From: an uncultured Verrucomicrobiae bacterium
GTDB lineage: Bacteria > Verrucomicrobiota > Verrucomicrobiia > Limisphaerales > JAFGQR01
Reading direction: 5' to 3'
Length of the DNA stretch: 64,000 nt
Assembly: GCA_963788655.1 (NCBI GenBank)
Contig: CAWBHS010000011.1
Span: 32,001-96,000 of the forward strand
Under the pieces are notes generated by a model. That model made no database searches and was not told where the DNA came from. It saw nothing but the letters and a program-made list of their open reading frames with translations. Made by a program: the position numbers and the translations under genes. Positions 8,797 to 23,542 of the stretch are shown in pieces (position 1 is the stretch's first letter; each line of letters starts with the position of its first letter).

Positions 8797-8993
8797 ATCC
8801 GGCGCGCCTTCACCTCGACTTGCCCCTCAGCGGCGCAGCGATGCCCGCTACGGGAAACTGCGCTTCTCGGTAAGTAACCACCCAAGGCCATCACCGTTAC
8901 AGTCGGCATTTCAGACGGATTTTTAGTTTTCCAAATCCGCCCGGCACGGGTTGAATCATTACATTGCGAATTGCACAAACTGTTCAACACACT

Positions 8994-11900
8994 ATGAAAG
9001 CGTTCCGTCTTACCGTTTCGACCATTGCGATCTTGTCCTGCCTCTTGGTTTTGCCCGGCTCCACCCGAGCCGCCGGTTCGGAGGCAGGCTTTGCCACCAT
9101 CGAAAAAGAGTTCCGTGAATTGCCGTTGTCGGCGCGCCGGCTGACTGGTCCGCTCTTTTGGTTGCACGGTGACGATAGCAAAGAACGTCTCGAAATGTAT
9201 GTGGCCAAGGTGGCCGAAGGCGGCAATGGCTGTTTCACCACCGAGTCGCGCCCGCACAAGGATTGGCTGGGTGAAGGTTGGTATCGTGACCTGGCCATCT
9301 GCCTTGATGCGGCCAAGCGGCACGGGCTGAAAATGTGGATCTTCGATGAAAAATGGTGGCCCAGCCAGGGCGTTGCGGGCCGGGTGCCGCCACGCTATGC
9401 GGCCAAACAATTAGACGCTTCCGCGGTCGAAGTGACCGGCCCGCGGACATTCGTAGCCGATGACTATGCGGGCGAACGTTACCTCGGCGCGGTGGCGGGT
9501 CGCGTGACGAATAACGGTGCGGTCGAAAGTGGAAGCCTGGTCGATCTTGCGCCATTCATTCGCGACGGCAAGCTGGCTTGGCAAGTGCCCAATGGTGCCT
9601 GGAAGATCATGAAGTTCACCCACAAACAAGCACCGGGATTGGGTCAGGGAGGTGGCAAACAATTGAGCGTGGACGGCGCCAGCCAGGACTGTGTCGATTG
9701 GTTCCTGCAAACCGTTTATCAGCCGCATTACGACCGGTTCAAAGCTGACTTCGGCAAGACTATTGTCGGCTTTTTCTACGATGAGCCCGAAACGCGCGGC
9801 GACTGGGGCACCGAACTGAATGGTGTTCTTGCCGAGCGTCACGTGGATTGGAAAAAGGCTTACGTGGCGTACAAGTTTCAACTGGCCGGTGAGGAACAAG
9901 CCGCCGCGCGTTACCAATATCTTGACGCACGGGCCGATGCTTGGGGGCGCACCATGTATGGCGGCATCACCCGGTGGTGCGAACAACACGGCGTCAAATC
10001 CATCGGCCACTTCATGGAACACAGCGGCATGTATCTGCTGCCCGATTTCTGCGCTGGCAATCTGATGGGCGTGCAGAAATACAGCAGCATGGGCGGCATC
10101 GACGCGGTGTTTGATCAGTTCGTGTGGGGCAAGCGAGTAACGCGAGACGTTCCCTGTTGGCAGACGCCCAAGCTCGGCAGCTCGATCACGCACGCCTACG
10201 GCAAACCGGACGATGTGGCGATGGTGGAAATCTTCGGCGCGCGCGGCCAGGATTTGACCTATCCGGAAATGAAGTGGTGGACGGACCACATGCAGGTTTC
10301 CGGCGTGAATTTCCTGATCCCGCATTCGTTCAATCCTCGCTCGCCGAACGATACGGATTGCCCGCCGTATTTCTACGACAGTGGATTCGAGCCGCGCTGG
10401 CCTTTGTATCGCGTGTTTGCCGATTACACCAGCCGGCTCAGTGTGATGCTCAGCGGGGGACGGCACGTGGCGCCGGTGGCCTTGTTGTTCCTCGGCCAGA
10501 GCACGCATGTCGGCCAACACATCACGCCCGATCAAATCAGTGAAAGCTTGCAGGACGCCCTTTACGACTGTGACTGGCTTCCGTATGAAGTCTTTGAAAA
10601 CGGCATGACGGTTTCCGGCAAGCGGCTCAAACTCCGCGAGGAGACCTATCGCATCCTCGTTGTCCCACCGGTGGAAGTGATTCCTTACGCCACGTTGGCC
10701 AAGGCCAAAGCGTTCTTCGACCGCGGTGGCGTCGTGGTGGGCTACGGTTTGTTGCCGACAAAATCCGCCACGATTGGCCACAATGCGGAAGCCATCGCGC
10801 AGTTGCGCGACGCGATCTGGGGCGCCAATACCCAACCCGGTCTTGCGTTGTGCAAAACCAGTTTCGCCGGTGGCCGGTCTTATTTGCTGCCCGCCAAACC
10901 AACCCCGGAGCAACTCCAACAAGTGTTCGCCGGCGATGCCGAGATTCATCCGTCGTTGGAAGTGGTGGCAGGTCAAACGGATCATTGGTTGCATGTCCTG
11001 CATCGAATCAAAGCGGGACGTGATGTGTTCTTCATCGCCAACCAGAATCACCTGGGCGCCGCGCGTCAATTTCAGTTCCGCATTAGCGCCGCCGGAGTGC
11101 CGGAATGTTGGGATCCGCTGCGCAATGAAATCACCTCCGTGCCGTTCACCCGCCACGGCGAACAGGTGGAATTGTCCCTGACCATGGAGCCCAATGCGAG
11201 CGTGCTGCTCGTCTTTCAACCGACCCGGCGGCCGTTGCCACCCCGCGTCCAAACTGACACGGCAACCGTGAGCACTTTGATTCCTCTCGTGCGGGTACCA
11301 GCGCCCGCAGCAACGCTGCCAGTGCTTGAAGGCCAACAAACGCCGGCTCGCCATTTTGCCGGCGGTTCGTGGGTTTGGTTTCCGGAAGGCAATCCGCAGC
11401 AAGGCGTGCCACCGGGCACCCGTTATTTCCGTAAACAAATCACCCTCCCGGCTGACCGCCAAATCCAGCAAGCCACCTTCGCCGGCACGGCGGACAATAG
11501 TTTTGCCTTGTTCATCAATGGCCAGCCAGCGGGCCAAGGCGATGCGAGCAGTGAAGGCTGGCGCAATCCGGTGACGTTGGACGTGACCGCGAAGTTGCAT
11601 CCCGGTGCCAACCAGTTCGCCATCGAAGCGGTCAACGGAGCGGACGCGCCCAATCCCGCGGGCCTGATTGGCTGCCTGGTCGTTCAATTCAAACAGGGCG
11701 CACCAATGACGGTGCGCGTGGACAAGACCTGGAAAGCGGCCAAAGAAAAATTGGCCGGATGGACCGACTTGGCCTTCAATGACCGCGCCTGGCCGGCGGC
11801 CAAAGAAGTGGTTCCGTTTGGCGCCGCGCCCTGGGGCCGGTTGGCGGGCAGCCGAATTACGCTCAGTCCGGTCACGGCGGACCCGTTTGCCGGTCGCTGC

Positions 11901-12125
11901 GACATACCGGCCAGCCTAGACCTGGCGAAATCGCGGGTCTTCCTGGAACTGGACGAGTTGGCCCCGGAAAACGCTGCTCGCGTCTCCGTCAACGGCCAAT
12001 ATGCCGGCGGTTTCCTCGCGAAACCATTGCGCCTTGACGTAACCGCACACCTGCAACCGGGCGCCAACACGATTCGCATCGAGCCGTTCGCGCCGAAGTC
12101 GGCGAAATTGGTAGTCTATCAATGA
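8994..12125 (+). CDS. Secreted glycoside hydrolase, GH106-like (alpha-L-rhamnosidase-like), with C-terminal beta-sandwich domains
   Basis: Signal peptide; PLFWLHG, WIFDEKWWPSQG, GFFYDEP, VEIFGA; GTRYFRK...ADN...NPAGL module also present in the GH78 gene. Confidence 0.78.
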   Translation: MKAFRLTVSTIAILSCLLVLPGSTRAAGSEAGFATIEKEFRELPLSARRLTGPLFWLHGDDSKERLEMYVAKVAEGGNGCFTTESRPHKDWLGEGWYRDLAICLDAAKRHGLKMWIFDEKWWPSQGVAGRVPPRYAAKQLDASAVEVTGPRTFVADDYAGERYLGAVAGRVTNNGAVESGSLVDLAPFIRDGKLAWQVPNGAWKIMKFTHKQAPGLGQGGGKQLSVDGASQDCVDWFLQTVYQPHYDRFKADFGKTIVGFFYDEPETRGDWGTELNGVLAERHVDWKKAYVAYKFQLAGEEQAAARYQYLDARADAWGRTMYGGITRWCEQHGVKSIGHFMEHSGMYLLPDFCAGNLMGVQKYSSMGGIDAVFDQFVWGKRVTRDVPCWQTPKLGSSITHAYGKPDDVAMVEIFGARGQDLTYPEMKWWTDHMQVSGVNFLIPHSFNPRSPNDTDCPPYFYDSGFEPRWPLYRVFADYTSRLSVMLSGGRHVAPVALLFLGQSTHVGQHITPDQISESLQDALYDCDWLPYEVFENGMTVSGKRLKLREETYRILVVPPVEVIPYATLAKAKAFFDRGGVVVGYGLLPTKSATIGHNAEAIAQLRDAIWGANTQPGLALCKTSFAGGRSYLLPAKPTPEQLQQVFAGDAEIHPSLEVVAGQTDHWLHVLHRIKAGRDVFFIANQNHLGAARQFQFRISAAGVPECWDPLRNEITSVPFTRHGEQVELSLTMEPNASVLLVFQPTRRPLPPRVQTDTATVSTLIPLVRVPAPAATLPVLEGQQTPARHFAGGSWVWFPEGNPQQGVPPGTRYFRKQITLPADRQIQQATFAGTADNSFALFINGQPAGQGDASSEGWRNPVTLDVTAKLHPGANQFAIEAVNGADAPNPAGLIGCLVVQFKQGAPMTVRVDKTWKAAKEKLAGWTDLAFNDRAWPAAKEVVPFGAAPWGRLAGSRITLSPVTADPFAGRCDIPASLDLAKSRVFLELDELAPENAARVSVNGQYAGGFLAKPLRLDVTAHLQPGANTIRIEPFAPKSAKLVVYQ

Positions 12126-12137
12126 GGTGTCGGCGGG

Positions 12138-13133
12138 ATGACGATGAACCACGTTGAACGTTTCCGCGCCTTGATGGATTTCCAGCCGGTGGACCGTCTG
12201 CCGCGTTGGGAATGGGCCATGTGGTGGGACCAGACCATCGACCGCTGGCACGGCGAGGGACTGCCGCGCGAACTCAAATTCAGCCAGGTCATCGACATCG
12301 CCGAGTATTTCGGGCTCGATCCCTACCAGCAGTTCTGGTTCAGCACCACGGATCCGACCATTGAGGCCACGCAACATCACGTCGAAGGCATCGTGGCCAA
12401 TCTGGATGATTACCGGAGGGTCCGTTCGGATCTGTTTCCGTGTCACGATGCGTCCATTGCAGGCATGGCCGCCTGGGCGGAACGGCAGCGGCGCGGCGAA
12501 GCGGTGGTCTGGTGTACGGTCGAAGGATTCTTCTGGTTCCCCCGCACCTTGATGGGCTTCGAGAAGCTGATGTATGCCTTCGCCGACCAAGCGGACTTGC
12601 TCCACCAAATCAACCACGATTTGCTCGAGTTCAATTTCAGTTTGCTCGACCAAATCTTTCAGGTCTGCGTGCCGACGTTCATGACCATTGCCGAGGACAT
12701 GTCGTACAACAACGGGCCGATGATCTCGAAGAAGACATTCGACGAGTTCGTCGCGCCGTACTACCGGGCGCTGGTGCCCCGATTGCAGGAACACAATATT
12801 CCGCTGTTCATGGACACGGACGGCGACGTTACATTGCTGGTGCCGTGGCTGGAAGAACTCGGCGTGACCGGCGTGCTGCCGCTGGAGCGTCAGGCGGGTG
12901 TGGATGGCATGATGCTGCGGCAGCAGTTTCCGCGGCTACGCATGATTGGCCACTTCAATAAATTGTCCATGAACCAGGGTGAAGCCGCGATGCGCGCCGA
13001 ATTCGAACGGCTCCGGCCCCTGATGAAGACCGGCGGTTTCATACCCAGCGTGGACCATCAAACTCCACCCGGCGTTTCCCTGGAGCAATACCACTGCTAT
13101 TTGCGGCTGCTGGAGGAATACACTGCGGCATAA
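12138..13133 (+). CDS. Uroporphyrinogen decarboxylase / MtaA-CmuA superfamily protein
   Basis: RTLMGFE, IAEDMSYNNGPMIS, MDTDGD, GGFIPSVDHQTPP. Confidence 0.85.
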   Translation: MTMNHVERFRALMDFQPVDRLPRWEWAMWWDQTIDRWHGEGLPRELKFSQVIDIAEYFGLDPYQQFWFSTTDPTIEATQHHVEGIVANLDDYRRVRSDLFPCHDASIAGMAAWAERQRRGEAVVWCTVEGFFWFPRTLMGFEKLMYAFADQADLLHQINHDLLEFNFSLLDQIFQVCVPTFMTIAEDMSYNNGPMISKKTFDEFVAPYYRALVPRLQEHNIPLFMDTDGDVTLLVPWLEELGVTGVLPLERQAGVDGMMLRQQFPRLRMIGHFNKLSMNQGEAAMRAEFERLRPLMKTGGFIPSVDHQTPPGVSLEQYHCYLRLLEEYTAA

Positions 13134-13275: not shown

Positions 13276-15339
13276 TCAGCCCAACCGGCACCCCGCGCAG
13301 CCGGTGCCGCGGAGCATGATGGCGGCGGTGGGGCAAACTTCCGCGGCGCGTCTGGCGGACTTCTTGAGCGCAATGGCCATCGGTTGATCGAAGGGCACAC
13401 CAACGCTCGCCTGGAAGCCGCGCCCGATGAAGGACACGCCCAGGTCTTCGCCGGCTTCGAGGGCGACTTGCACACAGGCGCCGCAGAGAATGCACTTGCC
13501 CGGCTCGTAAATGATGTCCGGGTGGGAGGCGTCGCGTTTGAAGCGGCGTCGTTCGCCGGCAAACCGTCCCGGATCAGCACCGTAGTCGGTGGCGTATTGA
13601 CGGACCCGGCAGACAATCGCCTTGCCGCAACCGCAACCCAGGCAGCGTCGCGACTCGCGCACCGCCTCGTCCAGCGAGAAACCCAATTCGACTTCCTCGA
13701 AGGTTGTACGCCGCTGCTCCATCTCGAGATGCGGCATTGGCATGCGCGAACCAGCTTCAATGTCCCGCAAAAACTCCGCCAGTTCCTCCTCGTTCAGCTT
13801 GCCCATGACCACATTGACTGCGTCCGGTGCGCCAACGACTTTTTGGTCCCACAAATACTGATGAATGGAGGCCGCCGCCAGTTTGCCGGCCGCCACAGCC
13901 CGCACGGCCAGATCCGGTCCGGTCACCGCGTCGCCGCCGGCGAATACACCGTCGAGATTCGTGGCCAGCGTTGGCGGATCGGCCCTGATGCCCCATTTCG
14001 AGAGGGTGATGTCCGTGGTGTGCATCGGTTCCAATTCCACCGTTTGGCCAATCGCCGCGATCACGCACGAAGCTTCGATTTCGAATTCCGAGCCCGCAAT
14101 CGGCACTGGCCGCGCCCGGCCGCTGGCGTCCGGAGCACCCAATTCCATCCGCTGGCAGGTCAGCCGCAGTTTGTCGCCGTGGCGTTCGAGTTTCACCGGG
14201 GCAATGAGGAACTCGACCTTTACGCCTTCGGCTTCGGCCGCTTCAACTTCCTCCATGAGGCAGGGCATTTCACGGCGCGTCCGGCGATAGAACACCCGCA
14301 CCGAACGCGCTCCCAACCGCAGCGCACAGCGACTGGCGTCCATGGCGGTGTTGCCGCCGCCCACCACGATGGCTTCGGCGCCGATGGCTGGCGGTTGGCC
14401 GTCGGTGATTTTTTCCAGCAATTCCACCGCGGGCAGCGCCAGTTCTTCGCCGGGACAATCCAGGCCGCGCGAGCCCTGGGCGCCAATCGCCAGGAAGACC
14501 GCCTGATGGTCGCGCCGCAAGTCTTCCAGCGTAAAATCCCGTCCTAGTTTTTGGCCCAGACGAATATCGGCGCCCAGGTTGCGGATCGATTTGATTTCCG
14601 CATCGAGAACCTGGCGCGGCAAGCGAAAGGCCGGAATGCCGTAGCGCAGCATGCCGCCGGCTTGCGGATGGGCATCGAAGATCACGACTTCATGTCCGCG
14701 GCGGAGCAGATGATACCCAGCGGCCAAACCCGCCGGGCCAGCCCCGACGATGGCGACGCGTTTGCCGCTCGGCGGTTCTTTGCCAGGAATGTAGGGCGAA
14801 ACGGAGAGCCGTTGATGGTCGGCGCTGAACCGGTGCAGATTACGGATCGAAAGCGATTCTTCCACCGCGCACCGCCGGCAGCGCTGTTCGCACAGGCGCG
14901 GGCAGACACGGCCCAATGACGCCGGCAGCACCAGGTCTTCGGTGACGACTTCGGCCGATTTGCGGTGGTCGCCCTTGGCGATTTGCGAAATGAAATTGGG
15001 AATGTCCAGGCGGGCAGGACAACCGGTTTTGCACGGGCCGACGCAATCACCGGCGTGGTCCGAAAGCAGTAGTTCCAGCGCAGTCTTGCGCGCTTCCCGC
15101 ACCTCGGGCGCATCGGAGAAGACCACCATGCCGTCGGTGGCAGGCATCGCACAGGAGGGCCAGAAATTGGGCCGCCCTTCGATGCGCACCGCGCACACGA
15201 AACACGAAGCCGCCGGCGGAAAGCCTTCGACGTGGCACAGCGTCGGGATCGTAATCCCCAGCTTGCGGGCCGCGTCGAGCACGGTTTGGCCTGGAGCAAC
15301 TTCGACCGCGCGGCCGTCGATGGTGAGGTTTACTGGCAT
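13276..15339 (-). CDS. FAD/NAD(P)-dependent Fe-S oxidoreductase: N-term [2Fe-2S], GltD/NfnA-like core, NuoG-like [4Fe-4S] C-terminus
   Basis: IPTLCH..SCFVC..PSC; CVGPCKTGCP, LGRVCPRLCE; GAGPAG; GGGNTAMD, YRR; RCLGCGC..C, KCILCGAC, VCPT; ATG at 15339. Confidence 0.9.
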   Translation of the reverse strand: MPVNLTIDGRAVEVAPGQTVLDAARKLGITIPTLCHVEGFPPAASCFVCAVRIEGRPNFWPSCAMPATDGMVVFSDAPEVREARKTALELLLSDHAGDCVGPCKTGCPARLDIPNFISQIAKGDHRKSAEVVTEDLVLPASLGRVCPRLCEQRCRRCAVEESLSIRNLHRFSADHQRLSVSPYIPGKEPPSGKRVAIVGAGPAGLAAGYHLLRRGHEVVIFDAHPQAGGMLRYGIPAFRLPRQVLDAEIKSIRNLGADIRLGQKLGRDFTLEDLRRDHQAVFLAIGAQGSRGLDCPGEELALPAVELLEKITDGQPPAIGAEAIVVGGGNTAMDASRCALRLGARSVRVFYRRTRREMPCLMEEVEAAEAEGVKVEFLIAPVKLERHGDKLRLTCQRMELGAPDASGRARPVPIAGSEFEIEASCVIAAIGQTVELEPMHTTDITLSKWGIRADPPTLATNLDGVFAGGDAVTGPDLAVRAVAAGKLAAASIHQYLWDQKVVGAPDAVNVVMGKLNEEELAEFLRDIEAGSRMPMPHLEMEQRRTTFEEVELGFSLDEAVRESRRCLGCGCGKAIVCRVRQYATDYGADPGRFAGERRRFKRDASHPDIIYEPGKCILCGACVQVALEAGEDLGVSFIGRGFQASVGVPFDQPMAIALKKSARRAAEVCPTAAIMLRGTGCAGCRLG

Positions 15340-15419
15340 TGGAATTCCACGTCTGCCGCAGGACAGTCCAGAGAGATTCGCAAAAGCTCCCTGCTGTCCG
15401 CACTTCTTTGACGCCCGGC

Positions 15420-15685
15420 GATCCCCGCAGGGGATCCACAACAATAGCCGTAGGTGCAACCTACGGGGAAGCGGCATTCGAATTGACACGGCCCTGAAGG
15501 GGCCGCACTACAACCCGTGCTATCAATCAAGATATGTTTCATCAAATTCAACTCCGGCATTGATTAGCAATTGTCGCAACTCATCTTTAAAAGACACATG
15601 GCGATGGTGTTCCTCCTGCCCTTTGATGTAATTGCAACTTTGTAGGCTGGCGCCTACGGCTATTCGGTTGATCCCCTGCGGGGAT
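15420..15685 (-). mobile_element. IS200/IS605 (TnpA/RAYT-like) transposase 3' remnant bracketed by palindromic inverted arms
   Basis: YIKGQEEHHRHVSFKDELRQLLINAGVEFDETYLD* (about 15630->15523); arms ATCCCCGCAGGGGATC..AATAGCCGTAGG..CCTAC at 15421-15464 and inverted at 15642-15685. Confidence 0.75.
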
Positions 15686-15732
15686 TGCGCGAGTTGTTTC
15701 CAGCCTGCGCGAATTTCAAGTTCACTTCTCAT

Positions 15733-18112
15733 TTATTTCACTTCAATGGCGTTGTACGGACAGACCTGGCGGCAGGAATCGCAGCGGGTGCAGAGGTCCT
15801 GGTCAATCACGTGTGGCTGGTACGGGGTCATCGGAATGGCGTCCACGGGGCAATGCTGGGCACACAACGTGCAACCGGTGCAGTTGGGTTTGACGGTGTA
15901 ATGGATGAGCGCCGTGCATTTGCCGGCGGGACAACGTCCCTGGAGATGCGCTTCGTATTCGTCGCGGAAATAGCGCAAGGTGGTGGCCACGGGATTGGGC
16001 GCGGTTTTGCCCAGACCGCATAGGCTGCCCTGGCTGACTTGGTACCACCAGGTGTTCCAGTTCGGTGAGATGCCGCCGGTGGGCCTTGCCGGCGCATAAT
16101 AGTTCCAGCAATTCGAGCATCCGCTTGGTGCCGATCCGGCAGAAGGTGCATTTGCCGCAGGATTGATTTTGCGTGAACTGGAGAAAGTAGCGCGCGATAT
16201 CGACCATGCACGCCGTGTCATCGAGCACCACCATACCGCCGGAACCCATGATCGCACCCACGTCACGCAACGATTCGTAGTCCACCGGTGTGTCGGCCAA
16301 GCGCGCGGGCAGGCAGCCGCCGGACGGGCCGCCAATTTGCACGGCTTTGAACTTCCGACCGGGCGCCACGCCACCGCCAATTTCCTCGACAATGTCGCGA
16401 ATGGTGGTGCCCATCGGTATCTCGATCAAGCCGGCCCGTTGGATCTTGCCGGCCAGCGCGAACACTTTGGTGCCCTTGCTGCTGGCCGTGCCGATGGCGG
16501 CGAAGGCTTCGGCGCCGTTGCGGATGATCCACGGCACCAGCGCCAGGGTCTCGACGTTATTGATGAGGGTGGGTTTACTCCACAAACCCGACTGGGCCGG
16601 AAAAGGCGGACGCAAACGCGGCATGCCGCGGCGGCCTTCCACCGAGGCGATCAAGGCGGTTTCCTCGCCGCACACAAACGCGCCGGCACCTTCCTTGATG
16701 GAGATGTGCAGCGGGTAATCGCCACCGAGCAAACGTTCACCCAACCAACCGCGGCGAGTGCATTCTTCAAGGGCCGCTCGCACGCGGCGCAAGGCCTGGG
16801 GATATTCGTGCCGGATGTAGAAAATGGCTTCGTGCGCGCCGATGGCCACCGCCGCAATGGCCAATCCTTCGAGCACCCGATACGGAAACGATTCGAGCAT
16901 CACGCGATCCATGAAGGCGCCCGGATCGCCTTCGTCGCCGTTGCAGATGACGTATTTGGTGTCGCTCGCTTGCTGGTGAACCATTCGCCATTTTTGGCCG
17001 GTGGGAAATCCGGCGCCGCCACGGCCGCGCACGCCCGAATTGATCATCGTTTCAATGACTTGCTCGGGCGACAGTTCTTCCAGCACGCGGCGCAGGGCAA
17101 CAAAGCCGTCGTGCGCCATATACTCGTCCAGGTCCAACGGATCAAGCCTGCCGAAGTGTTCGGTGGCGATGTGGATTTGCCGGTCGAGAAACGCGCGCGC
17201 GCCCGAGTCGCGATTGATCGCAGTGAACGGGGGCGCTTGATCCACGGCCACCGCGTCGTCCAAAAGCAGACTGTCCACGGCGCGGGTCCATAATTGCGAA
17301 ACCCGCCGGAACAAACCCTGCGGGCGAAATTGTCGTTCGACCAGCGAACGCACTTGCGCCGGCGTCAGGTCGGCAAAAGCGAGGTTGGGACGATCCGGCT
17401 TGGCGATCTCGATCAAGGGCGAACAGTAGCAAGCCCCGACGCAGCCGACGCGTTTCAGCGAAACGTCGGCGCCGGATTGTTCGACCGATTCCTCGATGGC
17501 CTTAAACACGCGGTCGGTTCCCTTGGCCACACAGCAGGAATCCAGGCAGACCTGGATTTGCGCGCCGCCGCCCTTGCGCGATCGGGCGGCTGCGGGCTTG
17601 CGTTTGACGACGGGAGGGCGTTGCAGGTTCGCCAGGAAATCGCGGATCATGTCCGGCACTTTTTCCGTGGTGGCGTTGCCCACGATTTCCTCATCGATCT
17701 TCACCAGCGGGGCCAGGGTGCAACAGCCCAGGCAGGCGACCGGTTCGATGGTGAATTGTCGGTCTGGATCGGTGTTCGTGCCGGCGGCAATGTGCAGATG
17801 GCGGCGGAGGGCGTCCTCGATCCGTTCCGCGCCGGCGACGTGGCAGGCAGTGCCATGGCAAACGTGAATGATGTGTTTGCCGACCGGTTCATGGCGGAAC
17901 ATGTCGTAGAACGTCGAGACGCCCGTGATGGCGGCGGGCGTGATTTGCGTTGTTTGGCACAGACGACGCAACGCTTCCTCCGGCAGATAACCGTATTGAT
18001 CCTGGATGGCCTGCAACAGCGGGATCACCGCCTCGGGCGACTTACCCAGACGCGCGATGGCCTGATCGGTAAACTTCAGGTCCACTTCCGGATGGTTGAG
18101 TAGGATGCTCAC
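15733..18112 (-). CDS. NuoE-NuoF (HydC-HydB/BfuC-BfuB type) fusion flavoprotein; +1 frameshift near 16042
   Basis: Nuo[15 protein letters not shown]; thioredoxin-like [57 protein letters not shown]; continues in the 15733..16392 frame as [20 protein letters not shown] and two CxxCxxCxxxCP; GTG start inferred. Confidence 0.9.
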
Positions 18113-18116
18113 GAGA

Positions 18117-19925
18117 CTACTTCGCTTCTGCCATTTTGTTGTCCTTCGCGCCGATGCAGAACAGGTTCTTCGCGCTGCGGACAATCATGTAATTCTGCAC
18201 AAAGGCGGGACTGGCATAGACTTTTTCGCCCAGGCTGGAACGGGCCAGTTCCTTGAACTCACGCCCGGCTTCCAACACGATTGCTGAGCCATCGACGGCG
18301 AAGATCAGCAGGCGTTGACCGACCAGCGTGGGCGAGGCATTGAAGTCCATTTCGTAGTCGTGTTCCCAGACTTTCTTGCCCTCCTTGGCGTCATAACATG
18401 TCACCATGCCGTAACTGCTCACCAAGAACACTAGTTCGCCGTTGCTGACCGGGCTGGTGATGTCCGGAATGCCGTCTTCGGCTTTCCAGAGGATGTGCGT
18501 CTTGGTGACATCCCCTTGACCATCGGGCCGAATGGCCATTAAGTACATGTTGGGACTCACGACATACAACATGTCGTTCACGAAAATCGGCGATGGCGTT
18601 ACTTCGCCTTCGAGACCTTCAGCACGCCAGAGTTCCGTGCCGTCGGTGGTGCTGTTGGCGATGACCCACGGCGGTCCCAACGTGATGATTTGGGTCTTGC
18701 CGGCGGCCTCGATCACAATGGGGGTGGTCCAGGACTCACCGACGGGCGGCTGCCGTTGCCAGACGATGTTGCCGGTGGCGCCGTCCAGGGCATACAAACG
18801 CGACAAGTGTTCATCCGGGCTGCCCTGGTCGAGTTGCACAATCAACCGATCCTGCCACGTCGTCAGCGAACTGGCGTGGCCCTGTGTGTTTTGCGGGACG
18901 CCGAGGTTTTTCGCCCAGGCGAGGGTGCCGTCGAAGTTGAATGCCGCCAGGTCGCCGTTGGCGAAAATCACATACGCGCGTTGGCCGTCGGTGGCCATGG
19001 TGGCGGCCGCGAAGCCGGTTTGTTCGGGAATGTTCGGCAGTTTACCGGTGTTGCCGGGCACATTCTCGACGGGGCGTTCCCAAAGCAAATTGCCGGAGGC
19101 GAGTTCGTAGCACATCACCTTGCGCTTCTTCTTGTCGCCGCCCGAAATGAAAACGTGATTACCCCACACAATGGGCGAGTTGAAACCTGAAGCCGGCACG
19201 GGCGATTTCCAGGCAATGCCAGCGCCGGAAGCAACCTCAAACTGAAGCAGGAAGTTGGTTTGCCCGATTAGACCATTGCCGCCCGGCCCGCGAAAACGCG
19301 GCCAGTTGGCTTGATATTCCGCGGGCGAGGGACCGGGAGTCTTGGAAGCGGCGGAAGCCGGGTTGTCCTGGGCCAGCAGTTGCTCGAGCTCGCTTGGCCG
19401 CGAAGGCACAGCCGTGCTCATGGTCAAGCCCAAGCCCGCGAACGCCAGCACCAAAAGGGCGCCCAGAGCGGCGACCGACCAGCGCGCCTGGGCGGCGTAG
19501 CGAGCGGCGCGCTCGGCGGCATCCGGGGCAAGTTGCGGCCGCGGGGGCTGGACGTGCAATTTATAAATCTGTTTCGCGGCCAGCAGGAAGACCGCGAGCC
19601 CCCCGAGGAGCATCCAACCGCCGGCGCCGTTCATGGACAATTGCCTGAAATAACTCTGGCGCAGTTCCAGGTCCTGTTCGCGTATGTGCTGCTTGAGCTG
19701 TTCGTCTTTCGGGGACGTGGCGAGTTGGTCTTTGAGTGCGGCCATCTGCGGCGCCTTCAACGGGTCGTCCACCTTCGAACGCACGTGCTGGACGATCATC
19801 CCGAGGACGAGCACCAGGCAGAACAATCCGGAAATGATCGCTGTCAGAACCGCAGCACGATTGAGTTCCGCCGGCCGCGGCTGGCCGGACGAACTGGAAT
19901 TGAGCGCTGGGACGTTGGCAGGCAT
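18117..19925 (-). CDS. Membrane-anchored PQQ-binding-like (BamB-type) beta-propeller protein
   Basis: Three N-terminal hydrophobic segments, WPRFRGPGGNG, repeated G..W and SP.. propeller blades, ending ASPAF..RSAKNLFCIG. Confidence 0.85.
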   Translation of the reverse strand: MPANVPALNSSSSGQPRPAELNRAAVLTAIISGLFCLVLVLGMIVQHVRSKVDDPLKAPQMAALKDQLATSPKDEQLKQHIREQDLELRQSYFRQLSMNGAGGWMLLGGLAVFLLAAKQIYKLHVQPPRPQLAPDAAERAARYAAQARWSVAALGALLVLAFAGLGLTMSTAVPSRPSELEQLLAQDNPASAASKTPGPSPAEYQANWPRFRGPGGNGLIGQTNFLLQFEVASGAGIAWKSPVPASGFNSPIVWGNHVFISGGDKKKRKVMCYELASGNLLWERPVENVPGNTGKLPNIPEQTGFAAATMATDGQRAYVIFANGDLAAFNFDGTLAWAKNLGVPQNTQGHASSLTTWQDRLIVQLDQGSPDEHLSRLYALDGATGNIVWQRQPPVGESWTTPIVIEAAGKTQIITLGPPWVIANSTTDGTELWRAEGLEGEVTPSPIFVNDMLYVVSPNMYLMAIRPDGQGDVTKTHILWKAEDGIPDITSPVSNGELVFLVSSYGMVTCYDAKEGKKVWEHDYEMDFNASPTLVGQRLLIFAVDGSAIVLEAGREFKELARSSLGEKVYASPAFVQNYMIVRSAKNLFCIGAKDNKMAEAK

Positions 19926-19943
19926 GAAGGCGTAGCGGTGTCT

Positions 19944-21300
19944 CTAATTCGGTTTTCGAGCTTCCAATTGCGTTTGGACGTACTGCTCCACGTCCTCGGC
20001 CGGAAGCAGCCCCAGCCGCACCCGTTCGTTGGGGCAATGCTCAAAACAACGCGCGCACGAAAGACACGCACCGCGATCCGGTTCGTAATCCGTTCGCGAA
20101 TGGCGCACGGACAGGCTGATCAATTTGGCACCCAACACCAAGCCGATCCAACCGCCGAGCAGCCAGCCGCCAATCAGGAATTCGTGCCGAATCGCCGCGG
20201 CATTTTCGAGCAGCGCTTGGGGTTCTTTCGCCGCGCGTTCAAGCTCCAGGGCTTCCGGCGACTGCGGCGCGTATTCAATGGGGGACCTTTGGTTCTGCAA
20301 ATACTTCTCTGCCAATGCCACCTTGGGATTGAGCAACGAAGCGGGTTTGCCCAACAACGATCCTGCCCAGCCCAATCCCAGGATCAGCACCGGCGTGAGC
20401 AAGAGTAAACCCGCGAGGCGGCGGCGGTCTTGGGCCAAGGTCGCGGGATTGGCAGTGCCGGCCGATGGCTCGCGCATGGCGCCAAACGGACAAGAGTGTT
20501 CGCACAGTTTACACTGGGTGCATTCGGTCGGAGTGGTGCGCACACGCCATTTGCTGACGGTGGAAGTCATTTTAAGCAGCGCACCATAGGGACAAAGAAA
20601 CCGGCAATACGGGTCGCCCTACAAACATGCCCAGCAGCAAGAACGCACCGCCCAACAGCAGTATCCCGAAACTGCCGGACAAACGGAACAGCGGCACAAA
20701 GGGATCGTACCGGCAGATGAGAAATGTGCTGCCGGTGGCGGCGAACAAAACGCCCGCGCCCAAATAGACGAACGGCACCACGCTCAGCGCGTGCTCCACC
20801 CAACCCGGCACTTTGACCGGTTTGATCAGCACCAAGTCCTGGATCGCCCCGTGCGGACAGACGCCGGCGCAGAAGGAGCGTCCGAAAAACAGCGCCACCA
20901 AAAGCGGCAGCGCAAAGAAACCAATCACAAACAGCGGCAGGACATAACTGTGATCGCCCAGGGCCAGCGCAACATTCTGAATGGAGCCGATGACACACAA
21001 GCAGCCCGCCCGGTAAAAACCGAAATAAGCCAGCGAGAACAGGGAAAGCGCCACGACGCCTTTGCGGGAGCGCCGCCTCAACGCCAGCCAGGAGGCAATT
21101 CCCAGTCCGGCGACAAGCACGGCCAGATCCACATATTCCATGGTTAAGGCGCGTGGTGCGGGCGTGGCGGTGGTGGGCAGTTGGTGGCCACCTTCGAAAT
21201 CCGGCGGCGGGAAGCGTTGGGCGGTGAAAGCGGATTGGGCGATCAGCAAGAACAGGAAACCGATGAGGAGAGGGAGGAGTGATCGAAATCCCGCTTTCAT
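19944..21300 (-). CDS. Membrane 4Fe-4S binding protein (NapH/MauN/YccM-like); +1 frameshift near 20612
   Basis: Multiple TM helices; GRSFCAGVCPHGAIQD; RPYCRFLCPYG restored by removing one base; CTQCKLCEHSCP and CLSCARCFEHCP. Confidence 0.88.
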
Positions 21301-21378
21301 GGGGAGCCTGGCTGAGCCAATCTGGCCAGCCTCCGGTTGGATGTCTTGTTCTAACACTACAACGACACTTTCACCGAT

Positions 21379-21469
21379 AGGCGCGCGGCGTTTAGGCCGC
21401 TTCAAGCACCCAAGGCCAACCAGCGGCTTGTGGGATAGGACGGTGAAGCGGCGTAAACGCCGCGCGCCT
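21379..21469. repeat. REPIN-like inverted repeat inside the redox operon
   Basis: AGGCGCGCGGCGTTTAGGCCGCTTCA (21379-21404) and inverted copy (21444-21469), one mismatch. Confidence 0.75.
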
Positions 21470-21630
21470 GCCGCGATTCGCCGGAACTGTCGCTGTAGTG
21501 CAAATCCGAAAGCGCCGGCAAGCCGGACGCACTCCAAACGCTGGCGCGACTGATCGCGGGCATTGAGCGCTTGGCAAGCCGGCTGATTGCCCACGCTACT
21601 CGACTGAACTCCATTCGACCGTTCCATCCT

Positions 21631-22218
21631 TTAGTGCGTCGTCGGGGCGGTCTTGAGCAGGTAAGCGTGATCCACCGGCACCCGCCGAAAGGCATCCCCG
21701 GCACAGGCGCGGGCAATGGAACATTCGTTGCAATTCAGGCAGCGGTCATGGCGCACCTGGAGGTAAAGCGAGCCGTTGCCAAACCGGTTGCAACCTTCGA
21801 CGCATTTGCCGCAACCGATGCACAAGTCCTCGTCGATGGTGTATTCGTAATACGGATCTTCGACAAAGGACCGTTTGATGGCTGCCGTGGGGCAAAGCTG
21901 GTTCTCAGCCGCGGTATTGAGAGCGTTGGGCTGCGGCACAAAGTAGCCGGTGCAAAGCTGGCAATAACCGCAGATGGCGTGGGAGTGGACACATTTGACA
22001 GCGGATTGTTCCAGCACGCACTCGGTGGCGCAGCGACCGCAACGCACACATTTCGCCGGGTCAATCTGCCAATAATATTCCTTCGCCGAGGTGCGCCCCA
22101 CCAGCGCCCCGGCCAATCCGCCCAAGCCCGCCACGGCGGCCACGCGGAAGCCGTCCCGCATGAACTGGCGGCGGCTGACGGGCGGTGGCGTTGGTTGCTT
22201 TTGTGGATCGTTTTCCAT
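21631..22218 (-). CDS. Tat-signal polyferredoxin (4Fe-4S dicluster protein)
   Basis: SRRQFMR plus hydrophobic stretch; CVRCGRCATEC, CGYCQLC, LCPT, CIGCGKCVEGC, CLNCNEC..AC. Confidence 0.88.
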   Translation of the reverse strand: MENDPQKQPTPPPVSRRQFMRDGFRVAAVAGLGGLAGALVGRTSAKEYYWQIDPAKCVRCGRCATECVLEQSAVKCVHSHAICGYCQLCTGYFVPQPNALNTAAENQLCPTAAIKRSFVEDPYYEYTIDEDLCIGCGKCVEGCNRFGNGSLYLQVRHDRCLNCNECSIARACAGDAFRRVPVDHAYLLKTAPTTH

Positions 22219-22222
22219 CGAT

Positions 22223-23305
22223 TTAGCCCGGTTGGTTGGTGGGTTGCGGAGCAGCGAAAGCCGTCTTGGCCTTCTTAACCATGATCCGGATCTCGTTGGT
22301 GACGGTATCGAGAATGTAAATGCGGCCCGCGGCGTCCGTGGCGACATCCAATGCGGCGTAGCTGCCGTCAGCCGGATTCTTGTCCACAGCGGCTTTGGCA
22401 TTTTCCACGAAGGACTCGGGGCCGGCCACCACTGATTCAAACTCGCCGTGAACACTATAGACCTTCACCCGTAGCAATCCCTTTTCGCAGGTGACAATCC
22501 GGCCATCCGGCAAGATCGCCAGGCTGATCGGATTGCAGCATCCGCAGAAGCCTTCAATCGCAGCGGACGCTTTGCCCCAACTCAACTCGAGATGCCCGTC
22601 GTAGGTATAAACCTCCACTTGGTGACGCCCGGGATTGTTGACCTGCAGCAGCCCGCTGGGATGAATATCCACGTCCAGAAACGGACTGGGCAGGATCAAG
22701 CCGGGAACATTGCGATCCGCGTCGTGCTGGCCAAGACGGTTAACCAGCTTCCCCGACCGGTCGGTGTGCAACACCACGCGATTGCCGGAATCACCAACAA
22801 ACACGTCATTCTTGGCAGCAGCCAATCCGGTGATCCAGGCCCGTTGGCCGAGCGAATCCCAAGCCGCAGGCCGGTTTTGTCTGGGCGCGAACACTTCGAC
22901 GTGATCGCGCAATCCGGCGTAAAGCGTCCCATCGCCAGCCACAGCCACCGCCCGCGCCGGACCGGTCAAGGCCCTTTCACCCACTGGCTTGCCCGACGTG
23001 TCGAGAATGCTCACGTAGTTTCCCGCCGCCACATACAACCGTTCATCCGGTCCGAACGCCAGACGCCGCGTATCGCCTCGCGGGCAGCGGAACCGTTTGG
23101 CCTCTTCGTAATGGATCAGCTTCGGGTCGGTTCTGCTAAACTGGCTCAGGTCGTAAGCAAACGGATTGGTTTGCTTCGGATCTGCGGCTTGCCCGTGTCG
23201 CTGGGTTAGCATCAAGGCACCGCCCACGCCTGCCGCGCCGGCGGCAAACAAGCTGGTTTGCAGGAAGTGACGACGGGTTAGTGGATCAATGGTGGGCTTT
23301 TTCAT
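22223..23305 (-). CDS. Tat-signal NHL-repeat beta-propeller protein with CGCCNP motif
   Basis: TRRHFLQ; NHL-like VFVGDSGNRVV, VNNPGRHQVEVY, IYILD; GFCGCCNP. Confidence 0.85.
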   Translation of the reverse strand: MKKPTIDPLTRRHFLQTSLFAAGAAGVGGALMLTQRHGQAADPKQTNPFAYDLSQFSRTDPKLIHYEEAKRFRCPRGDTRRLAFGPDERLYVAAGNYVSILDTSGKPVGERALTGPARAVAVAGDGTLYAGLRDHVEVFAPRQNRPAAWDSLGQRAWITGLAAAKNDVFVGDSGNRVVLHTDRSGKLVNRLGQHDADRNVPGLILPSPFLDVDIHPSGLLQVNNPGRHQVEVYTYDGHLELSWGKASAAIEGFCGCCNPISLAILPDGRIVTCEKGLLRVKVYSVHGEFESVVAGPESFVENAKAAVDKNPADGSYAALDVATDAAGRIYILDTVTNEIRIMVKKAKTAFAAPQPTNQPG

Positions 23306-23308
23306 GAA

Positions 23309-23542
23309 TCAACCTCCAGTTAGTGGGTTCTTTACGGACAACGCCGCAGGCAGGTCGCAGCCGGAGAATATCGGACAGCCCCCGCAAATGCCCTGGTTCA
23401 CGCAGGCCGGATTGGGCGCAGTCCGACGGCTTGCCGTCGCCAGGGCGCCCCCAGCGGTGAGGGCGCCAAGCAACAGATAACGGGCGGCGCCGCGCACAAA
23501 CTCGCGGCGACTGCTCTCTGTGGTTGGACGAGGGTCCATCAT
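23309..23542 (-). CDS. Small Tat-signal four-cysteine protein
   Basis: SRREFVR, hydrophobic helix, then CVNQGICGGCPIFSGCDLP; its stop lies 3 nt before the NHL gene start and its last codons contain GGAGG. Confidence 0.75.
   Translation of the reverse strand: MMDPRPTTESSRREFVRGAARYLLLGALTAGGALATASRRTAPNPACVNQGICGGCPIFSGCDLPAALSVKNPLTGG

What the first reader, a model, noticed from the sequence alone, without database searches (positions are those of the whole stretch)
13276..23542. Seven-gene trans-envelope redox operon linking Tat-exported Cys/Fe-S proteins to a cytoplasmic HydBC/Bfu-type flavoenzyme
Seen: co-oriented genes with gaps under 20 nt except where repeats or IS debris intervene. 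Order: Tat four-Cys mini-protein, Tat NHL propeller (CGCCNP), Tat polyferredoxin, NapH-like membrane Fe-S protein, membrane-anchored PQQ-type propeller, NuoE-NuoF fusion, [2Fe-2S]-GltD-like protein. Established: NapG/NapH and MauM/MauN pairs move electrons between quinol and periplasmic enzymes, while NuoEF/HydBC modules handle NAD(H) and ferredoxin in the cytoplasm. No recognisable terminal catalytic subunit (H-cluster, NiFe, molybdopterin, heme) is encoded. Inference: an uncharacterised conduit coupling NAD(P)H or ferredoxin to a periplasmic reaction carried out by the beta-propellers. I know of no characterised system with this composition, but cannot check the literature here.
Basis: partly seen in the sequence, partly recalled or inferred. 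Interest (0 to 1): 0.8.

Follow-up and report, generated by a model that had tools for sequence, protein, structure and literature searches.

The report
Bifurcating enzyme wired across the membrane
Seven genes that stay together in many Verrucomicrobia and Planctomycetes encode a flavoenzyme of the electron-bifurcating type that likely passes electrons through a predicted iron-sulfur wire in the membrane to exported propeller proteins, an apparently undescribed arrangement whose outside reaction is still to be found.

Summary
The operon is real. 53 of 55 long-enough related loci carry the polyferredoxin-to-BfuA genes after the NHL gene. Two genes carry unreported +1 frameshifts, probably assembly errors, since this genome's rpoB is split too.

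The cytoplasmic pair is not catalyst-less here: it is a BfuC-BfuB fusion with all bifurcation ligands, plus an NfnA/StnC-like subunit with intact FAD and NADP(H) sites. That form is the minority. 54 of 63 relatives, and 19 of 19 in a second set, lack the NADP domain, some the whole FAD domain, yet keep the Fe-S ligands and the membrane genes. This points to the NapH-like protein as the third electron port.

Best reading (0.5): electrons flow out via three invariant outer cysteines and a Tat polyferredoxin to a vicinal Cys-Cys NHL propeller. Contact and direction are untested; the complex predictor was unavailable.

An SHC-like terpenoid cluster co-occurs in 24 of 26 carriers in a phylum sample, but in only 8 of 17 in this order, and was not found in this genome. 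No description found in nine literature searches. The scan found this system before on other DNA.

The parts
23309..23542 (-). Twin-arginine, membrane-anchored four-Cys mini-protein (77 aa; C47, C53, C56, C62; alternative start 23557)
   Evidence: RR and four Cys at least 90% conserved in 76 rows. No Pfam or NCBIfam hit. A similar Cys tail is fused to the NHL protein's C-terminus in 5 loci.
22223..23305 (-). Exported six-bladed NHL beta-propeller (360 aa) with a vicinal Cys-Cys loop (EGFCGCCNP)
   Evidence: Model pLDDT 87.7; best folds are NHL domains at 14-19% identity; motif tallies.
21631..22218 (-). Twin-arginine four-cluster polyferredoxin (195 aa, 17 conserved Cys), NapG-like in layout; JGI labels many relatives RnfB
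   Evidence: 6883 relatives at E<=1e-10; NapG model far below cut-off.
21379..21469 (.). Intergenic palindrome (26-nt arms, 96% complementary), REP-like (label recalled)
19944..21300 (-). NapH/NosR-superfamily membrane Fe-S protein (about 450 aa): signal peptide, 7 inferred TM helices, 3 outer-face Cys, 2 CX3CP motifs, 2x[4Fe-4S] domain split by a periplasmic hairpin. One extra base near 20611-20614 splits it in the assembly.
   Evidence: one ORF in 72 of 74 loci; 15 Cys in at least 139 of 140; NapH models E 4e-12, below cut-off.
18117..19925 (-). Membrane-anchored (3 inferred TM) PQQ_2/BamB-type beta-propeller (602 aa)
   Evidence: only weak repeat-level matches to solved propellers and quinoproteins.
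15733..18112 (-). BfuC-BfuB (NuoE-HydB/NfnB) fusion with C1, B1, B2-site, B3/B4 ligands and GGPSG. One extra base near 16041-16050 splits it in the assembly.
   Evidence: one ORF in 56 of 58 loci; intact orthologue L016: best hits NfnB 9n5u_B, 9bov_B, StnB 8oh5_B.
15418..15732 (-). Inverted repeat plus 69-codon remnant resembling an IS200/RAYT transposase C-terminus (resemblance recalled; no Pfam hit)
13276..15339 (-). BfuA of the long type (687 aa): [2Fe-2S], inserted GltD-like FAD/NADP(H) domain, C-terminal [4Fe-4S]; no Fdh/NuoG-like C-terminal domain
   Evidence: (colinear with Csac NfnA 9bov_A 4-671, E 6e-174; StnC 8oh5_C; Tsib NfnA 9n5u_A).

Best explanation
The operon encodes a Bfu-family flavoenzyme core (fused BfuC-BfuB plus BfuA) that is likely wired through a NapH-like membrane iron-sulfur protein and an exported four-cluster ferredoxin to a predicted redox-active Cys-Cys site on an exported NHL propeller, and would deliver strongly reducing electrons to a periplasmic reaction. 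Shown by sequence: the cofactor ligands, the gene order, and the loss of BfuA's own catalytic domain in most relatives while the wire genes stay. Inferred: (1) BfuCB couples NAD(H) and ferredoxin as in NfnABC/StnABC; (2) the membrane protein's cytoplasmic 2x[4Fe-4S] domain docks on BfuA's exposed C-terminal cluster, the branch that is a dead end in StnC/NfnA; (3) electrons cross via the CX3CP sites and the three invariant outer-face cysteines; (4) they pass through the polyferredoxin and the four-Cys mini-protein to the vicinal cysteines of the NHL propeller; (5) the anchored PQQ-type propeller holds the substrate, most likely a lipid or lipid-linked compound of the cell envelope. Outward flow is favoured over inward because NapH/NosR/PceC relatives feed periplasmic acceptors and the membrane potential assists that direction. 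In this window's minority variant BfuA keeps an NADP(H) site, so NADPH could feed the wire, and the core may also act as an Nfn/Stn-type transhydrogenase.
For: Order kept in 53 of 55 loci with at least 8.2 kb downstream of the NHL gene; BfuCB adjacent on the same contig in 17 of 26 polyferredoxin-positive genomes of a 250-genome phylum sample. BfuCB ligands: C1, B1, B3/B4 72 of 72; B2 site four ligands 72 of 72 and the fifth 68 of 72. BfuA: NADP domain (window residues about 288-443) absent in 54 of 63 complete copies and in 19 of 19 from a second set seeded with a distant polyferredoxin. The R239 equivalent is kept in 9 of 9 long and 3 of 25 short copies, while all Fe-S cysteines stay in 25 of 25. 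The FAD domain is lost altogether, or nearly so, in L108-L111, three of which are fused to BfuCB. A BfuA without a catalytic domain needs extra subunits for its third substrate (PMC9304861, types 2-3, parts 3-4 read). BfuA homologues remain elsewhere in 4 of 4 genomes where BfuA left the BfuCB locus. Membrane protein: 15 Cys in at least 139 of 140 copies. Vicinal Cys-Cys kept even in NHL proteins cut to about 220 aa. Mini-protein-like Cys tail fused to NHL in 5 loci.
Against: No contact, cofactor, activity or transcript was shown. The exported/membrane module exists without a BfuCB-fusion orthologue in 5 of 5 genomes checked for that reason, one of them closed, and at L025. In closed genome G257 the polyferredoxin-membrane pair and the Bfu pair lie about 3.2 Mb apart. 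The window's own BfuA has a complete NADP(H) site, so this copy does not need the wire to close its electron balance. NapH itself is described as a quinol dehydrogenase (PMC5928378, passages), which offers a route without Bfu contact. The topology rests on hydropathy, charge parity and one predicted model. The loci were chosen as best hits and are related, so the counts are not independent. No catalytic site could be assigned to either propeller.
Confidence: 0.5

Rival explanations
1. Quinone-linked, no direct contact. The membrane protein and polyferredoxin work like NapH-NapG, taking electrons from the quinol pool to the propellers, while the Bfu enzyme is only a co-regulated supplier or sink of NAD(H)/ferredoxin.
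For: 60 of 61 membrane proteins match NapH/MauN models weakly. NapH's TM segments are proposed to oxidise quinol (PMC5928378, passages; PMC8238504 calls it the putative quinone-binding subunit). The module occurs without the cognate Bfu or far from it (G257). The host has three heme-copper oxidase matches, so it likely has a quinone pool.
Against: It leaves the short and minimal BfuA forms (54 of 63; 19 of 19) without any third-substrate site, although their Fe-S ligands and the B2-site ligands are fully kept.
Confidence: 0.2
2. Same wiring, inward flow. The propellers form a periplasmic dehydrogenase, perhaps with a non-PQQ cofactor made by the linked radical-SAM/prenyl genes, that oxidises a low-potential substrate; the Bfu core bifurcates the electrons to NAD+ and ferredoxin.
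For: Type 2/3 Bfu enzymes take electrons from extra catalytic subunits (PMC9304861). NapH-like genes also occur beside alcohol oxidases (PMC8238504, passage). Vicinal cysteines next to a cofactor are known from quinoprotein alcohol dehydrogenases (recalled). Several PQQ-type propellers and an ABC/FtsX exporter flank the core in many loci.
Against: No quinoprotein active-site match. Inward transfer must climb the membrane potential (inference). The candidate cofactor genes were not found in this genome or in 9 of 17 carriers in its order.
Confidence: 0.17
3. In this genome the operon is a decaying pseudo-operon, whatever it does in relatives.
For: Two frameshifts and mobile-element debris inside 10 kb. 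The usual upstream partners are on other contigs and the terpenoid genes were not found.
Against: Essential genes in the same assembly are split too: rpoB, and 9 frame changes counted, about 6 clear on inspection, in 29.8 kb of housekeeping genes, predicting 1.9-2.9 in this operon's 9.5 kb. All ligand residues are intact on both sides of each break.
Confidence: 0.07
4. An ordinary Nfn/Stn transhydrogenase that merely sits beside an unrelated envelope module.
For: The window's BfuA is colinear with NfnA/StnC and has the NADP(H) motifs.
Against: Order conserved across phyla. The window's BfuA groups with the operon's short forms (SH-aLRT 99.5), apart from stand-alone NfnA copies. Its proximal-cluster ligand is His rather than the Lys that StnC needs (PMC10482914, passages).
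Confidence: 0.06

Closest known systems
NfnABC / StnABC, the Nfn-type Bfu transhydrogenases (Caldicellulosiruptor 9bov, Thermococcus sibiricus 9n5u, Sporomusa ovata 8oh5)
   Same: Best PDB matches for both cytoplasmic genes. Same FMN/B1/C1 core, B2-site and B3/B4 ligands, GltD insertion in BfuA; the window keeps the NADP(H) motifs and R239.
   Different: BfuC is fused to BfuB. BfuA lacks the Fdh/NuoG-like domain that mediates tetramers and one of the two branch clusters, and has His for K170 plus extra conserved Cys. Most relatives lack the NADP domain. The characterised enzymes are soluble three-subunit complexes without membrane or exported partners.
Type 2/3 and membrane-bound Bfu enzymes (Wor-, Bam-, Mbh-, Nuo-Bfu; PMC9304861)
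   Same: BfuA without its own catalytic domain, flanked by extra subunit genes.
   Different: The described extra subunits are pterin, NiFe, CODH, POR or complex-I modules. None is a NapH-like protein with exported propellers in the parts read; 17 clades there have no assigned function, and the supplementary sequence table could not be searched.
NapGH / MauMN / NosR / PceC membrane electron-transfer modules
   Same: Two CX3CP motifs plus a C-terminal 2x[4Fe-4S] domain; partner is a twin-arginine four-cluster ferredoxin.
   Different: Far below family cut-offs (46 bits against 213-234). Has a signal peptide, a periplasmic hairpin splitting the ferredoxin domain and three invariant outer Cys; no FMN-binding domain; no known terminal reductase beside it.
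HoxEFU-type diaphorase (recalled; HoxE and HoxU models hit below cut-off)
   Same: The minimal BfuA forms (L108, L110, L111) resemble HoxU in size and cluster motifs.
   Different: No hydrogenase genes in the loci; fused to BfuCB and linked to a membrane module.
'SHC-like' orphan terpenoid cyclase cluster (PMC7306690, PMC12414744)
   Same: Adjacent to the operon in 13 loci.
   Different: The passages read do not mention the redox operon. The two sets also occur apart, and this genome's assembly lacks the cyclase and prenyl synthase genes.

Membership tests
Bfu family (BfuBC bifurcating core) | BfuB with NuoF FMN domain, SLBB, B1 [4Fe-4S] and C-terminal 2x[4Fe-4S] (B3/B4); BfuC with C1 [2Fe-2S] | tested here: met
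   all ligands in 72 of 72 orthologues; present in the window across the frameshift.
Bfu family (BfuBC bifurcating core) | Five B2-site ligands including the His absent from non-bifurcating homologues; GGPSG in the SLBB domain | tested here: met
   (72, 68, 72, 72, 72 of 72). Mapping to A. mobile numbering inferred from spacing and the alignments; criteria from PMC9304861 and PMC7311640 passages.
Bfu family (BfuBC bifurcating core) | BfuA with at least the A1 [2Fe-2S] and a [4Fe-4S] domain | tested here: met
Bfu family (BfuBC bifurcating core) | Coupled turnover of NAD(H), ferredoxin and a third substrate | not testable with these tools
   Needs the enzyme.
Nfn-Bfu / Stn | GltD-like domain with FAD and NADP(H) Rossmann folds and R239 | tested here: met
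   Met in the window and 9 of 63 relatives; not met in the other 54.
Nfn-Bfu / Stn | Lysine ligand (K170) of the FAD-proximal cluster | tested here: not met
   His in 9 of 9 long forms, Lys in 5 of 5 stand-alone NfnA copies.
Nfn-Bfu / Stn | C-terminal Fdh/NuoG-like domain and separate A, B, C subunits | tested here: not met
   The window protein ends where that domain starts; C and B are fused. Four stand-alone clusters (L128-L130, L139) also lack the domain.
NapH/MauN | Two CX3CP motifs plus two [4Fe-4S] motifs in a polytopic membrane protein | tested here: met
NapH/MauN | Curated family score (TIGR02163, NF007013) | tested here: not met
   46 bits against 213 and 234 for the intact orthologue.
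NapH/MauN | Quinol oxidation | not testable with these tools
   No solved structure of the fold was matched.
NapG/MauM | Twin-arginine signal and four [4Fe-4S] motifs | tested here: met
   Export itself is not shown.
NapG/MauM | Curated family score (NF007012, TIGR00397) | tested here: not met
   19.6 bits against 269.
PQQ-dependent dehydrogenases | Family score and PQQ/Ca-binding residues | tested here: inconclusive
   All quinoprotein models far below cut-off; only blade-level matches; residues were not mapped on a model.
RnfB (database label of the polyferredoxin) | RnfB family score | tested here: not met
   RsxB model 16 bits against 203; label seen.

The most novel reading that the evidence does not exclude
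A new branch of the Bfu family whose third electron port has moved from a cytoplasmic NADP site to a trans-membrane iron-sulfur wire, exporting confurcated low-potential electrons to periplasmic vicinal-dithiol and orphan PQQ-type propellers. In anaerobic PVC bacteria it would serve as the redox arm of the unsolved SHC-like terpenoid pathway, within a roughly 16-gene cluster that also makes, glycosylates and exports the lipid.
Probability: 0.3. Interest if true: 0.85.

Novelty: new variant of a known kind. Interest (0 to 1): 0.68.

Why it matters
The Bfu enzymes described in the papers read connect NAD(H) and ferredoxin to cytoplasmic catalytic domains or to known pumping modules. One that uses a NapH-like protein to reach the periplasm would be a new route for moving low-potential electrons across the membrane. 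It would give a testable role to three poorly understood groups at once: NapH-superfamily proteins (no solved fold matched), the abundant orphan PQQ-type propellers of PVC bacteria, and possibly the SHC-like cyclase pathway. The natural series of BfuA forms (intact, NADP domain missing, FAD domain missing and fused) is a ready-made tool for mapping electron entry into the Bfu core. The polyferredoxin family is large (6883 clusters) and often labelled RnfB, which can mislead metabolic reconstructions.

Tried and rejected

Reads: one DNA run with a small share of words was listed and no RNA holder. Its listed contig pieces did not span either frameshift, so it says nothing on them or on expression.

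Fold searches for the membrane model found nothing significant: no Foldseek hit at E<=0.001, best VIA Z 7.1 on the helical hairpin only. The NHL fold search gave only generic propellers. The polyferredoxin profile's single PDB hit, 9mqx_E at E 1e-6, is treated as a generic four-cluster match.

No Rfam hit. Promoter and terminator counts were near shuffle level: 2 against 2.6 and 20 against 13.6 +/- 3.9. A scan for TGA in place of motif cysteines gave only off-frame noise, so no selenocysteine evidence.

An obligatory link to the terpenoid cluster is rejected: 8 of 17 carriers against 33 of 61 overall in this order, Fisher p 0.57. Restriction to strict anaerobes is rejected: 14 of 17 carriers in this order have heme-copper oxidase matches. 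The mini-protein homologue search was uninformative, 2 hits.

The trees are quick ones. The BfuB tree omitted rows with X or without the anchor motif; the BfuA tree used 39 chosen rows. They disagree on whether the long BfuA is ancestral or re-acquired, and no clade test was run.

Literature searches returned nothing; searches returned no paper describing this gene set in the listings and passages read. The Bfu paper's supplementary sequence table was not held as text and may list these proteins among its unassigned clades.


Full report
Observation. All seven genes lie on the minus strand in the stated order, with the domain calls given under parts. The window is part of an 8.96 Mb, 115-contig, 86% complete genome whose closest named loci are Verrucomicrobiota, several labelled Limisphaerales or subdivision 3. 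Two genes are broken in the assembly. The two halves of the membrane gene are one ORF in 72 of 74 related loci, and those of the NuoEF gene in 56 of 58. At each break the window has one extra base against 12 of 12 orthologues. The same assembly splits rpoB. A comparison with 32 genes of a same-genus genome counted 9 frame changes in 29.8 kb, about 6 of them clear on inspection, which predicts 1.9-2.9 in this operon. Assembly error is therefore the likely cause; the one available run did not span the sites.

Conservation. The NHL protein found 384 related stretches in the species-representative genomes, of which the best 80 were fetched. Of 55 loci with at least 8.2 kb downstream of the NHL gene, 53 carry the polyferredoxin, membrane, PQQ-type, BfuCB and BfuA genes; L025 lacks the Bfu genes and L061 runs off its contig. 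The mini-protein and NHL genes swap order between most Verrucomicrobiota and the Planctomycetota loci. In 250 phylum genomes at least 90% complete, 26 have the polyferredoxin. The BfuCB fusion is adjacent in 17, on another contig in 5 drafts, far away in one closed genome, and not found in 3. A second set of 80 metagenome loci seeded with a distant polyferredoxin shows the same layout in the 43 loci of 6 kb or more that I printed. Named relatives also come from Poribacteria, Chitinispirillia and, by Atlas clusters, Bacteroidota. Single rows labelled Bifidobacteriaceae, Anaerolineales and Aegiribacteria may be misbinned; the last two are nearly identical to planctomycete rows. These loci are best hits and kin, so the counts are not independent.

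Cytoplasmic module. The intact orthologue of the fusion matches NfnB/StnB best. All C1, B1 and B3/B4 ligands occur in 72 of 72 copies, and the five B2-site ligands in 68-72 of 72, meeting the sequence definition of a bifurcating core in PMC9304861 (parts 2-4 of 9 and passages read) and the GGPSG criterion in PMC7311640 (passages). The last gene is colinear with the first 670 residues of NfnA/StnC but stops before the Fdh-like domain. In the window it has the FAD motif, the NADP(H) motifs and R239, so the claim of no catalytic subunit is wrong for this copy. It has His where StnC needs K170 (PMC10482914, passages), and five cysteines, including a terminal CxxC, kept in 9 of 9 long forms and at no aligned position in the other rows.

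The key result is that this long form is the exception. Of 63 complete BfuA copies, a motif script called 9 long, 45 short and 9 without the FAD motif; I reassigned 5 of those 9 to short by length (443-527 aa), leaving 50 short and 4 minimal. Short forms lack window residues of about 288-443, the NADP domain, mostly lose R239 (3 of 25) and keep every Fe-S cysteine (25 of 25). Minimal forms keep only the N- and C-terminal cluster domains; three of the four are fused to BfuCB. In the second set none of 19 complete copies has the NADP motif. Where BfuA has left the BfuCB locus, a homologue remains elsewhere in 4 of 4 genomes, once about 1 kb downstream of the prenyl synthase gene. BfuB of long-form loci nests among short-form Limisphaerales loci, whereas long BfuA is sister to all short forms. 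Re-acquisition and long-branch artefact both remain possible.

Membrane and exported module. The membrane protein belongs to the NapH/NosR superfamily but scores far below family cut-offs, and its model (pLDDT 80.6) matched no solved fold. Signal peptide, hydropathy and charge parity suggest seven helices, with both CX3CP motifs and the split ferredoxin domain inside and three cysteines outside (inference). All 15 cysteines are kept in at least 139 of 140 copies, the outer three in 140 of 140. The polyferredoxin has 17 conserved cysteines, one more than four clusters need, and a twin-arginine motif in 75 of 76 copies. The NHL protein is a six-bladed propeller. Its constant feature is the vicinal Cys-Cys: CCNP in 107 of 109 and 59 of 64 copies, with five of the seven exceptions reading GCCDP or GCCAP, one GCGNP and one truncated. 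Planctomycete NHL proteins have a Sec-type anchor rather than a twin-arginine leader, which argues for a disulfide or periplasmically loaded metal rather than an Fe-S cluster at that site (inference). A four- or three-Cys tail like the mini-protein is fused to NHL in 5 loci. The PQQ-type propeller gave no catalytic clue.

Wider cluster. In many relatives the core sits in a larger unit with further PQQ-type propellers, a GT4 glycosyltransferase, an ABC ATPase and a 1100-aa FtsX permease. In 13 loci it adjoins genes of a cluster that comprises a radical SAM enzyme, a DUF116-polyprenyl synthase fusion, a prenyltransferase-fold protein and an SHC-like cyclase. An earlier scan note gave this lead. 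In the phylum sample 24 of 26 polyferredoxin-positive genomes have the fusion, out of 27 full-length carriers, across 14 families; 2.8 would be expected by chance. Against this, only 8 of 17 carriers in the window's order have it, below the 33 of 61 base rate, and this assembly lacks it while keeping GT4, ABC/FtsX and two partner propellers on other contigs. The cyclase clade is described as of unknown function (PMC12414744 and PMC7306690, passages). The link is real in some lineages but not obligatory.

Mechanism. A fully conserved bifurcating core whose BfuA has mostly lost its catalytic site needs another port for its third electron pair, and the only conserved candidate is the membrane protein's cytoplasmic ferredoxin domain. 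The C-terminal cluster kept in every BfuA form is a dead-end branch in StnC/NfnA (PMC10482914, PMC11829005, passages), and the same region is the entry point for extra subunits in type 2/3 enzymes (PMC9304861); without the Fdh-like domain it would be exposed. I therefore favour a direct wire with outward flow to the NHL dithiol (0.5), over quinone-mediated coupling (0.2), inward flow (0.17), local decay (0.07) and chance neighbourhood (0.06). Five genomes carry the wire without the cognate Bfu genes, so other donors must be possible.

Novelty. The cytoplasmic parts are known and the membrane protein belongs to a known superfamily (PMC8238504, PMC5928378, passages). The combination, the BfuA reduction series and the exported components were not found in nine searches of the open-access library, which omits most subscription papers. 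PMC11406978 (passages) covers only hydrogenase-type Bfu clusters; PMC12018979 and PMC12318220 were seen as listings only. The scan had reported this system at least six times on other genomes. Verdict: new variant of a known kind, interest 0.68.

Noticed in passing
window 13276-15339 (BfuA residues 157, 295, 360, 681, 684): Long-form BfuA has five cysteines, including a C-terminal CxxC tail, kept in 9 of 9 long forms and at none of the aligned positions in short or stand-alone copies. With FAD and NADPH this recalls flavoprotein disulfide reductases with a mobile dithiol arm (recalled).
   Followed up: partly
L119:2840-15120 (G197): A distant NHL-polyferredoxin-short membrane trio lies a few genes from ArsR, DsrE, MvhD and two HdrA-like flavoprotein genes, possibly the same wire paired with a different bifurcating enzyme.
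   Followed up: partly
L094:6278-10832; L095:8995-13484: Two genomes of this order have tandem NHL paralogues, one with two vicinal Cys-Cys motifs, plus a PQQ-type propeller but no polyferredoxin or membrane gene nearby.
   Followed up: partly
L160:8111-9414; L118:9535-10569; L119:5259-6350: The membrane gene is split at the periplasmic hairpin in L160/L161. Short forms lacking the hairpin have no anchored PQQ-type gene beside them, hinting that the hairpin contacts that propeller.
   Followed up: partly
G000 whole assembly (e.g. C45 rpoB/rpoC): About 0.2-0.3 single-base frame changes per kb in housekeeping genes; other 'pseudogene' or 'programmed frameshift' findings from this genome should be read with that in mind.
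   Followed up: yes
G000 C48, C66, C92, C101: Orthologues of the ABC/FtsX pair, two partner PQQ-type propellers and the GT4 glycosyltransferase that flank the operon in relatives are dispersed on other contigs.
   Followed up: partly
window 8964-13133: Convergent plus-strand GH106 rhamnosidase-like and URO-D-family genes follow the operon; a GH106 gene also follows it in L116. Not conserved otherwise.
   Followed up: no
L128-L130, L139: Stand-alone NfnABC-type clusters in this phylum have about 700-aa BfuA subunits lacking the Fdh/NuoG-like domain, a compact Nfn-Bfu form.
   Followed up: no
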